A stretch of 64,000 nucleotides of DNA from Phyllobates terribilis (taxonomy: Eukaryota), in assembly GCF_046119375.1 (NCBI RefSeq), contig NW_027362770.1:194494001-194558000 (forward strand). Direction: 5' to 3'. The translations under genes were made by a program, and so were the position numbers. The notes below the pieces were generated by a model that ran no database searches, had not been told where the DNA came from, and was given only the letters and a program-made list of their open reading frames with translations. Each line of letters begins with the position of its first letter. Position 1 is the stretch's first letter. This document shows positions 55,850 through 57,572 of this stretch, one piece after another.

Positions 55850-56037
55850 ACTGGACGGGAGGCGGTGCTACTTAACGATCATTGGTCAAACTTATCAGTT
55901 GTTTATTGGTCTCTTTTTTTCATGAATGAACCAATGGGGTGCAGGGGGCGTGTTTCCCGTAGACCGATGAGGACGCGCAGACGAGCATAAATACCCTGCT
56001 CCCGCCGCTCCGCTCATCACATCTGTACTCGTGTATA
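55850..56037 (+). promoter_or_regulatory. Native H3 promoter and proximal 5' UTR, displaced from the CDS
   Basis: Inverted CCAAT at 55881 and 55905, CCAAT at 55931, TATA-like CATAAATA 55986-55993, cap-site-like CTCATCAC about 25 nt later; no other CDS follows. Confidence 0.7.
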
Positions 56038-57106
56038 TGACGCGCCCCTGGGCCTTCTGTGTCGCGCTGCGATGCGCACGCGGGAGCTTACCCGGAGCCT
56101 GATCTCTTGAGGGTTGTAGTCTCGTGGCGGTGACCCGGTCCGTGCCCAGGGAGTCAGACTAAGTGGCGCTGTATCAGCGGTAGATGTTGGATGACTACGC
56201 CACCTGTTGAGTACAGCTAAGGAGCTGCTGCTGCAGGGCAGACCGCTGAGGCCGGTGGTAGGATTGTGCAGCGTGATAGTATAACCCCCAACGGGAGGGG
56301 TATGGCCTCAGGGCAGCCGACGTGGATGATGGGGGTAGCAGGAACCACTCGGAGACGGTACGGTGTAGTTCAGGGTCTTTACTGGTGACAAAGATAAACC
56401 CTCCCGGAGTACTGGTTAGCGGTCGGGGTCTGGTCAGTCCTTGAGCAGATGGGATCTCCCCTGGCCAGGCGGAGTTGTAGGCCTCCCAAACTAACTGTAC
56501 TCTTCTGGCTACCTTGCTAGAGGCGGGTATAAGTAGCCCACGTCCCTGAGTGTACCGTGTGGTGCTCACCCGTATGGCCGGTGACTCGGGGCCTTCTAGT
56601 AGCTTCCGCTCCACGACGGCGGTGCTGGTCCCACGCGTGTGACCGTGCCTTCGGGTTTCTTGGCCAGAGGACCTGGAATCCCCTGCCTGACGGATTCTGC
56701 TGCTGGGTAGGAGTTAGCCCCCACAGCCTCGGACTCCGGGTCCGGTAAGAAATCTTCTCAGTCAGGGTGAGCTCTGCAGCTGCCAGCCCCTGACTCCTTG
56801 TAACACTGCTCCCACAGAGCTCCTGTTGTTTCTTCCCATAGCTGCTTCTCTTCTCTGTCTCTACTTCTGGCATGGCCCAGGAGCTGGGCCCAGCCGGAGC
56901 CACAGCTCCCTGTCAGCCCTCCTGGCTAAACTCTCCCTCTGAAGTCTCTAACCCTGCCTCAGCCCCGGGTTTATATAGGGGAAGTTCTTCCCCTCCCAAG
57001 ACTGGGCAGGAGGTGTGGCATGCACAGGATCCCTGACCAAGAGACCTCCCACCTGCTCTCAGACAACATTACATTACTGTGGAAACCAGACCCCTGGGGT
57101 GCCACA
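56038..57106 (-). mobile_element. Solo LTR (1,069 bp) inserted in the H3 5' UTR
   Basis: TG...CA termini with imperfect inverted ends (TGACGCGCCCC / GGGGTGCCACA), exact 4-bp TSD TATA at 56034-56037 and 57107-57110; minus-strand CTATATAAA near 56970-56978 and AGTAAA poly(A)-like signal near 56380 suggest antisense orientation. Confidence 0.85.
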
Positions 57107-57117
57107 TATACAGCGCT

Positions 57118-57528
57118 ATGGCCAGAACCAAGCAGACCGCCCGTAAATCCACCGGAGGGAAAGCTCCCCGCAAGCAGCTGGCCACTAAGGCCGCCAGGAA
57201 GAGCGCTCCTGCCACTGGCGGAGTGAAGAAGCCGCATCGCTACCGGCCAGGAACAGTCGCTCTCCGGGAGATCCGCCGCTACCGGAAGTCCACCGAGCTG
57301 CTGATCCGTAAGCTTCCCTTCCAGCGCCTGGTGAGGGAGATCGCCCAGGACTTCAAGACCGATCTGCGCTTCCAGAGCTCGGCGGTGATAGCGCTGCAGG
57401 AGGCCAGCGAGGCTTATCTGGTGGGGCTGTTCGAAGACACCAACCTGTGCGCCATCCACGCCAAGAGGGTCACCATCATGCCCAAAGACATCCAGCTGGC
57501 CCGCAGGATCCGCGGGGAGAGGGCTTAG
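57118..57528 (+). CDS. H3: Histone H3 (H3.2-like, A31/S87/V89/S96) with Q55R and M90I; possibly inactivated
   Basis: [21 protein letters not shown]...IRGERA, full length 411 nt, intact frame. Confidence 0.95.
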
Positions 57529-57556
57529 ATCTTCCGGGCACCGAGGACAACACAAA

Positions 57557-57572
57557 GGCTCTTTTCAGAGCC
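57557..57572 (+). terminator. Histone 3' stem-loop of H3 (GGCTCT-TTTC-AGAGCC) with HDE AAACGAGCTG
   Basis: Canonical stem-loop with ACCA 3' flank. Confidence 0.93.

What the first reader, a model, noticed from the sequence alone, without database searches (positions are those of the whole stretch)
55850..57572. Solo LTR splits a histone H3 gene from its promoter
A 1,069-bp TG...CA element with an exact TATA duplication lies about 20 nt after the inferred cap site and 7 nt (after the TSD) before the ATG. Removing it restores a typical short leader, ...ACTCGTGTATACAGCGCT-ATG. The element appears antisense and adds upstream ATGs, so it may silence this copy or generate antisense RNA toward the promoter. 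Alternatively its TTTATATA at 56970-56977, ~140 nt before the ATG, could rewire expression; an out-of-frame ATG at 57020 would then dampen translation. The CDS and stem-loop remain intact.
Basis: partly seen in the sequence, partly recalled or inferred. Interest (0 to 1): 0.7.

Follow-up and report, generated by a model that had tools for sequence, protein, structure and literature searches.

The report
Jumping-gene remnant splits one histone copy
The leftover end-piece of a very common jumping gene sits backwards between the promoter and the start of one of about sixty histone H3 genes, which likely disables that single spare copy; this is an ordinary kind of accident in a repeat-rich genome.

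Summary
56038-57106 is a 1,069-bp solo LTR with a 4-bp TATA duplication, 7 nt before the H3 ATG. It belongs to a young, very abundant Ty3/Gypsy family: 40 of 40 scored full-length matches (39 besides itself) are 96-100% identical. Paired-LTR relatives carry a tRNA-Ser primer site and polypurine tract that put it antisense to H3. A paralogue shows the predicted empty site exactly; 29 of 29 fetched paralogues have the short leader. The 'rewiring' idea is weak: TTTATATA is the LTR's own TATATAAA on the other strand, pointing away from the coding sequence. The insert adds 11 upstream ATGs. The copy is one of 62 full-length stop-free H3 genes and also has Q55R, M90I and a broken CCAAT box; other H3 copies are split by other insertions. 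Best reading: an insertion-disabled, drifting spare copy. Expression, methylation and population frequency were not tested. Boldest open reading: the histone promoter makes antisense-LTR RNA that feeds piRNAs (about 6%).

The parts
55931..55935 (+). Distal CCAAT box of the H3 promoter (intact)
   Evidence: same position relative to the ATG (-113/-114) in 21 of 22 complete paralogues
55945..55950 (+). GC box (GGGGCG)
   Evidence: role recalled, not tested
55964..55968 (+). Proximal CCAAT box changed to CCGAT (G at 55966)
   Evidence: 22 of 22 complete paralogues have CCAAT here; no laid contig of runs X1, X2, X8 shows the G
55986..55993 (+). TATA-like box CATAAATA of the H3 promoter
   Evidence: CATAAAT or TATAAAT in 22 of 22 paralogues
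56013..56033 (+). Inferred cap site (about 56016) and first part of the H3 leader
   Evidence: Identical to L030; start site inferred from spacing, not measured
56034..56037 (.). Left copy of the 4-bp target-site duplication TATA
   Evidence: single TATA at the empty site in L030
56038..57106 (-). Solo LTR, 1,069 bp, Ty3/Gypsy family, antisense to H3
56378..56383 (-). AGTAAA poly(A)-like signal of the LTR (element position 724)
   Evidence: 20 of 20 aligned copies; function inferred
56970..56977 (-). TATATAAA box of the LTR (element position 130); reads TTTATATA on the + strand
   Evidence: 18 of 20 aligned copies; function inferred
57020..57226 (+). Out-of-frame upstream ORF (68 codons) overlapping the H3 start; last of 11 upstream ATGs
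   Evidence: ATG present in 20 of 20 LTR copies
57107..57110 (.). Right copy of the TATA duplication
   Evidence: junction found once in the assembly
57118..57528 (+). Histone H3 coding sequence, open, with Q55R (57284) and M90I (57390)
   Evidence: (PF00125, E 7.7e-48)
57557..57572 (+). Histone 3' stem-loop (intact)
57588..57597 (+). Purine-rich downstream element AAACGAGCTG, same as in the nearest paralogues
   Evidence: its role as U7-binding element is recalled

Best explanation
A Ty3/Gypsy retrotransposon inserted backwards at a TATA site in the short leader of one of about sixty H3 genes, likely collapsed to a solo LTR by recombination between its two LTRs, and likely left this copy unable to make useful amounts of H3, so that it is now probably a drifting spare with no selected role. 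Shown: the insertion, the 4-bp duplication, the orientation, the empty site, the copy numbers and the sequence changes. Inferred: (1) the parent was of the 3.5-kb pol-less type, because the LTR matches those elements in length and at 96-97%; (2) any RNA from the H3 promoter must read 1.07 kb of LTR with 11 upstream ATGs, the last overlapping the H3 start out of frame, so little H3 would be translated; (3) the LTR's own promoter faces the H3 promoter, and repeat silencing may spread onto it, so transcription is probably lowered too; (4) the loss is buffered by the other copies.
For: Solo LTR with exact 4-bp duplication. Of 19 fetched sister LTRs, 17 sit beside a primer site and/or polypurine tract and 2 are solo with 4-bp duplications. 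Three paired elements of 3,488-3,492 bp have LTRs differing at 4, 5 and 12 of about 1,069 sites, so the family is young. 150 of 150 scored matches to a 96-aa piece of its gag-like frame are 100% identical, from 64,459 candidates. Empty site exact in L030. 11 upstream ATGs; all 6 in-frame ones stop before the CDS. Only internal splice-site motifs were found, none that would remove the whole insert. 62 full-length stop-free H3 matches, 48 of them with the same top score below the query. Changes private to this copy among 23: Q55R and M90I, no synonymous one, plus the CCAAT change, while variants shared by 2 or more copies are 23 synonymous and 0 non-synonymous. Q55A lowers octamer stability (PMC2677872, passages seen). 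Other H3 copies are broken by insertions: L108 by a 1,465-bp TG...CA element with a 5-bp duplication, and 7 fetched loci by a shared insert.
Against: No expression, methylation or ribosome data. The coding frame, stem-loop, downstream element, TATA-like box and distal CCAAT are intact. The excess of amino-acid changes is not significant: 2 non-synonymous and 0 synonymous against 7 and 12 among the other copies' private changes, Fisher p = 0.17. The uninserted sister copy L029 also has two private amino-acid changes, so such changes need no LTR. There is no AATAAA or ATTAAA on the + strand of the insert, so read-through RNA to the stem-loop is possible. The order of insertion and point changes is unknown.
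Confidence: 0.76

Rival explanations
1. Antisense trap: the H3 promoter still fires and makes a 1.55-kb RNA that holds the whole LTR in antisense and ends at the histone stem-loop; in germ cells this RNA feeds piRNAs against the family.
For: Geometry fits: antisense LTR just behind the inferred cap site, no canonical + strand poly(A) signal, intact stem-loop. The family is very abundant and young. A single antisense insertion transcribed from a host promoter is enough for piRNA silencing in Drosophila, with a koala parallel cited (PMC13226689, passages seen).
Against: The cases in those passages are 3' UTR insertions (the word 'histone' does not occur in that paper's main text). One CCAAT box is broken. 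With thousands of copies, many other antisense sources are likely. No small-RNA data here.
Confidence: 0.07
2. Active interference: the LTR's own promoter (TATA at 56977-56970, minus strand) is on and transcribes across the H3 promoter toward the H2B 3' end, affecting the neighbours as well as H3.
For: TATATAAA and AGTAAA conserved in sister copies. CpG count of this LTR (49) equals that of the sister copies (46-52), with no excess of CpG decay. Contigs of run X14 (RNA is a guess) cover the LTR family.
Against: The LTR carries its own poly(A)-like signal 350 nt before its far end. X14 coverage cannot be assigned to this copy or to a strand. H2B ends about 1.2 kb beyond the LTR.
Confidence: 0.09
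3. Rewiring: the LTR supplies a new + strand promoter about 140 nt before the ATG and expresses an H3 variant with R55 and I90.
For: The coding frame and 3' signals are intact; a TATA-like sequence is partly symmetric, and LTRs can be bidirectional (established knowledge, recalled).
Against: The motif is the LTR's own TATA on the other strand. A + strand RNA from there would still carry the out-of-frame ATG at 57020. No other H3 match outscored the 48 canonical ones, so no otherwise canonical copy shares R55 or I90. The insertion is single-copy in the assembly.
Confidence: 0.04
4. Assembly artefact: the LTR was mis-joined into an H3 gene.
For: No listed contig of four runs bridged the left junction (the list is cut and contigs cannot show absence). 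The G at 55966 was not seen in three DNA runs.
Against: An exact 4-bp duplication of the family's typical length at exact LTR ends, with flanks that rejoin to the paralogue's leader, is not what a mis-join makes.
Confidence: 0.03

Closest known systems
Ty3/Gypsy LTR retrotransposons of frogs (clades Amn-san, Cer, Gmr1, Mag listed in PMC4131045; passages seen)
   Same: TG...CA LTRs, 4-bp duplication, tRNA primer site, polypurine tract; a pol-bearing relative has gag (PNMA / Retrotrans_gag / CCHC hits) and pol in the order RT, RNase H, integrase.
   Different: Not Gmr1 (that clade has the copia-type pol order); no chromodomain or env hit in the two frames scanned. The clade was not placed on a tree; Mag-like is a recalled guess. 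Most close copies are 3.5-kb pol-less derivatives.
Drosophila element 297 inserted in the TATA box of a histone H3 gene (Ikenaga and Saigo 1982; recalled, nothing seen: searches did not retrieve it)
   Same: Gypsy-type LTR element inserted at a TATA-like target upstream of the H3 coding sequence in one unit of a multicopy histone family.
   Different: Here a solo LTR, in the transcribed leader rather than the promoter TATA box, in a vertebrate with dispersed clusters.
Birth-and-death turnover of multicopy histone genes (established concept, recalled; only search listings seen)
   Same: Many near-identical proteins, synonymous divergence between clusters, and scattered broken copies.
   Different: This copy keeps an open frame; the lesion is in the leader.
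Antisense transposon insertions in host transcripts as piRNA sources (Tirant in Drosophila, PMC13226689; passages seen)
   Same: Antisense element placed under a host promoter.
   Different: Those are 3' UTR insertions with piRNAs shown; here a 5' leader of a stem-loop histone gene, with no RNA evidence.

Membership tests
Solo LTR | TG...CA ends with a short target-site duplication and no internal region | tested here: met
   TG...CA, TATA on both sides, host sequence on both flanks
Solo LTR | Same sequence occurs as paired direct terminal repeats of longer elements | tested here: met
   three 3.5-kb elements; 7.8-kb element
Solo LTR | Empty site exists with a single copy of the duplication | tested here: met
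   Paralogue L030. This is a paralogue, not an allele; an empty allele of this locus was not shown
Ty3/Gypsy | Primer-binding site matching a tRNA 3' end just inside the 5' LTR | tested here: met
   19-nt site in L021, L022, L074 complementary to the 3' end of tRNA-Ser(TGA) genes L110, L111 plus CCA
Ty3/Gypsy | Polypurine tract before the 3' LTR | tested here: met
Ty3/Gypsy | pol order RT, RNase H, integrase; no env | tested here: met
   on the relative whose LTR is 92.6% identical: RVT_1 416-575, RNase H 647-778, integrase 915-1083; no env family hit in the two frames scanned
Ty3/Gypsy | RT falls inside the Ty3/Gypsy clade on a tree | not tested
   No reference RT set was fetched
Gmr1 clade | Integrase before RT (copia-type order; PMC4131045) | tested here: not met
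   integrase follows RNase H
Chromovirus (Amn-san) | Chromodomain at the integrase end | tested here: not met
   no Chromo hit, whereas the unrelated integrase at window 63976-63083 gave one
Replication-dependent histone H3 gene | Intronless H3 frame with 3' stem-loop (PMC5706932, passages seen) | tested here: met
Histone pseudogene | Broken reading frame or 3' signal | tested here: not met
   Frame and stem-loop intact
Histone pseudogene | Relaxed selection on the protein | tested here: inconclusive
   2 non-synonymous, 0 synonymous private changes; p = 0.17
Histone pseudogene | No RNA or protein product | not testable with these tools
   Needs stranded total RNA, CAGE or proteomics of this genotype
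Genic antisense piRNA source | Host-promoter transcript through the insert and phased unistrand piRNAs | not testable with these tools
   No small-RNA or stranded reads at hand

The most novel reading that the evidence does not exclude
The insertion turned a spare histone gene into a transposon trap: the H3 promoter, strong in S phase and oocytes, writes a non-polyadenylated, stem-loop-ended RNA that is two-thirds antisense LTR and supplies piRNAs against a young family present in thousands of copies. Redundant histone genes would then be cheap landing sites for new genome defence, by a 5'-leader route not among the 3' UTR cases read here.
Probability: 0.06. Interest if true: 0.62.

Novelty: new member of a known kind. 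Interest (0 to 1): 0.2.

Why it matters
As best read, it matters little: one more case of a mobile element disabling a redundant histone copy, useful for annotation (the intact frame would be called a normal H3 gene, or a false R55/I90 variant) and as a population marker. It would matter if the histone promoter still transcribes the antisense LTR in germ cells, since that would test whether a non-polyadenylated histone-type RNA can feed piRNA production.

Tried and rejected
DNA transposon with terminal inverted repeats: rejected; the ends match at only 12 of 20 positions and the sequence occurs as paired direct repeats with primer site and polypurine tract. Gmr1 clade, guessed from the serine primer: rejected by pol order. 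Dating the insertion from its 12 'private' substitutions against 19 copies: rejected, because several of these bases are common among contigs of the family (about a third of depth at 56422, about half at 57025), and only 40 of 3,737 candidates were scored. Search for a pol-bearing partner through the gag-like fragment returned only short elements in the 24 loci looked at; one was then found by reading the neighbouring 240 kb. Pfam gave no family for the 158-aa frame of the short element. Sequencing runs: no RNA holder listed. Laying contigs of X1, X2, X8, X14 on 55400-57117 listed no piece bridging the left junction; the list is cut and contigs cannot show absence. Whether reads carry the right junction, Q55R or M90I remains untested. 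Summed contig depth over the LTR was about 10^5 times that of the unique flank, which is no copy number. Literature: searches listed no paper on an LTR in a vertebrate histone leader, judged from titles and abstract starts only; the library lacks most subscription papers, so this is no proof of absence. PMC3017104 passages gave no phenotype for Q55 or M90 changes. One search gave nothing useful. Supplements were not consulted.

Full report
Setting. The window lies at G000:C10:194,494,001-194,558,000 of a 10.6-Gb genome, probably a frog (inferred; an earlier scan note calls it a poison frog, not tested). After a 26-kb 38-bp satellite come H2A (minus strand), H2B and the H3 gene in question.

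Observation. All coordinates hold. TATA stands at 56034-56037 and 57107-57110 around a 1,069-bp TG...CA insert; 7 nt follow before ATG 57118; the 136-codon H3 frame (PF00125) and the stem-loop at 57557 are intact. A search with the promoter gave 40 matches, of which 30 were fetched. Besides the window, 29 of 29 have the short leader, and L030, 104 kb away, has exactly the predicted empty site. The right junction occurs once in the assembly.

What the insert is. The genome search scored 40 of 3,737 candidates; all 40 gave full-length matches, the 39 others at 96-97%. Of 19 fetched sister LTRs, 5 have a primer-binding site on one side, 11 a polypurine tract on the other, 1 both, and 2 are solo with 4-bp duplications. 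These signals lie on the minus strand of the window, so the LTR is antisense to H3. The 19-nt primer site is complementary to the 3' end of tRNA-Ser(TGA) genes of this genome plus CCA (2 of 9 pattern loci scanned were called tRNA-Ser). Three complete short elements are 3,488-3,492 bp with about 1,350 bp between LTRs that differ at 4, 5 and 12 sites. They hold only a 158-aa gag-like frame without a Pfam hit, yet 150 of 150 scored matches to 96 aa of it are identical: a young, very abundant pol-less family. Of 8 rows with both host flanks held, 5 have an exact 4-bp duplication, 3 match at 3 of 4 bases (two of these share flanks), and none has 5 or 6 bp. A 7.8-kb relative lies 210 kb downstream, with identical 966-bp LTRs 92.6% like this one and a CATA duplication. 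Its frames give PNMA / Retrotrans_gag / CCHC hits and RT, RNase H, integrase in Ty3/Gypsy order, with no chromodomain or env hit. That excludes Gmr1, which has the copia-type order (PMC4131045, passages). Its LTR lacks about 100 bp that the window LTR shares with the short elements, so the parent here was likely of the short type. Solo-LTR formation by LTR-LTR recombination is established knowledge, inferred here.

The LTR's own signals. On the element strand TATATAAA stands at position 130 (18 of 20 aligned copies) and AGTAAA at 724 (20 of 20). It would start RNA near 56945 running away from the H3 coding sequence and toward the H3 promoter. The ATG at 57020 is in 20 of 20 copies. Neither feature is an adaptation to H3.

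Effect on the gene (inferred). RNA from the H3 promoter would now carry about 1.1 kb of leader with 11 ATGs, one made by the left junction. The six in-frame ones all stop before the CDS, and the last runs out of frame across the H3 start to 57226. The splice motifs found are internal and would not remove the insert, and canonical histone genes are intronless (PMC5706932, passages). There is no canonical + strand poly(A) signal, so read-through to the stem-loop is possible but should translate poorly.

Is the copy decaying? Among 23 complete copies, this one alone has Q55R and M90I and has no private synonymous change; variants shared by two or more copies are 23 synonymous and 0 non-synonymous. 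The proximal CCAAT is CCGAT here and CCAAT in 22 of 22 others. Q55A reduces octamer stability (PMC2677872, passages); nothing was found on Q55R or M90I. Against over-reading: the other 22 copies carry 7 non-synonymous and 12 synonymous private changes, so 2 to 0 is not significant (p = 0.17), and the uninserted sister L029 also has two. In run X1 the contig that holds this locus's unique upstream flank aligns to 55965 and has three more letters, ending where it would merge with L030 if it had A at 55966; no laid contig of X1, X2 or X8 shows G there. I infer that the CCAAT change is not fixed in the species, or is an assembly error. Whether those individuals carry the LTR was not shown.

Context. 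The H3 protein search gave 102 matches from 139 candidates, all scored; 62 are full length and stop-free, 48 with the same score just below the query. Broken copies are common: L108 is split in its CDS by a different 1,465-bp TG...CA element with a 5-bp duplication; 7 of the 29 fetched paralogues share an insert after nucleotide 63; several other matches have stops. Within 304 kb around the window there are at least three insertions of this family or its relatives. One hit among some sixty H3 genes therefore needs no special explanation (inference).

Comparison. It is a solo LTR by every feature tested and Ty3/Gypsy by primer site, tract and pol order; the clade is unplaced. It is not a pseudogene by frame, only a likely one by regulation. 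The nearest precedent I recall is element 297 in the TATA box of a Drosophila H3 gene; I could not retrieve that paper. The boldest reading borrows from Tirant, where one antisense insertion transcribed from a host promoter yields silencing piRNAs (PMC13226689, passages). The geometry here allows it, but no RNA evidence supports it.

Verdict. Interest 0.2; new member of a known kind. The scan's index held no look-alike of this LTR and no note of this kind.

Noticed in passing
G000:C10:194760221-194768027 (L074-L075): 7.8-kb pol-bearing relative of the same family with identical LTRs and a CATA duplication, ending 541 bp from the stem-loop of the sister H3 copy L029: a second recent insertion of the family in the same small histone cluster.
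   Followed up: partly
L108:1420-2884 (G000:C9:360614419-360615883): Another H3 copy split in its coding sequence by a 1,465-bp TG...CA element with 9-nt inverted ends and a 5-bp duplication; no match to this LTR family.
   Followed up: partly
L051-L057 (C10:181-191 Mb, C510, C1198): Seven H3 loci share one lesion: about 70 nt of coding sequence after nucleotide 63 replaced by about 500 nt. A broken H3 unit has itself been amplified.
   Followed up: no
L029 (G000:C10:194768600-194769007): Sister H3 copy without the LTR has A29V, P43Q and a 12-nt duplication right after the stem-loop.
   Followed up: partly
L103, L105, L106, L107, L112, L113: Genomic copies of the tRNA-Ser 3' end, about 22-45 nt long and ending in encoded CCA; L113 continues with the same letters as this family's primer-site/LTR junction, as if the primer tRNA had been copied beyond the usual 18-19 nt.
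   Followed up: no
L004; also pairs of gag matches about 2.4 kb apart on C1 and C2: Three-LTR tandem arrangements of the short element.
   Followed up: no
L021:4310-4786: The pol-less elements keep a stop-free 158-aa gag-like frame; 150 of 150 scored copies are identical over 96 aa. Recent burst or selection on the frame was not separated.
   Followed up: partly
window 63976-63080 (-): End of an unrelated chromovirus-type integrase (SH3_Tf2-1 and Chromo hits).
   Followed up: partly
window 60311-62581: Broken frames resembling a hAT transposase (resemblance recalled; no Pfam hit for 61226-62578 at E 0.1).
   Followed up: no
window 27351-53112: 38-bp satellite of 681 copies at 96% identity directly before the histone genes; other arrays of 35, 26, 30/59, 29 and 18 bp upstream.
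   Followed up: no
window 54387-54767 and 53656-54060: Neighbouring H2B and H2A frames are open with stem-loops; the H2B has Ser where the one other H2B seen nearby has Pro near residue 10. No H4 or H1 frame was called beside a stem-loop in the 304 kb read.
   Followed up: no
window 24466-23456 (-): Intronless 336-aa frame resembling a galactosyltransferase (B3GALT6-like; recalled, not tested) close to the histone genes.
   Followed up: no
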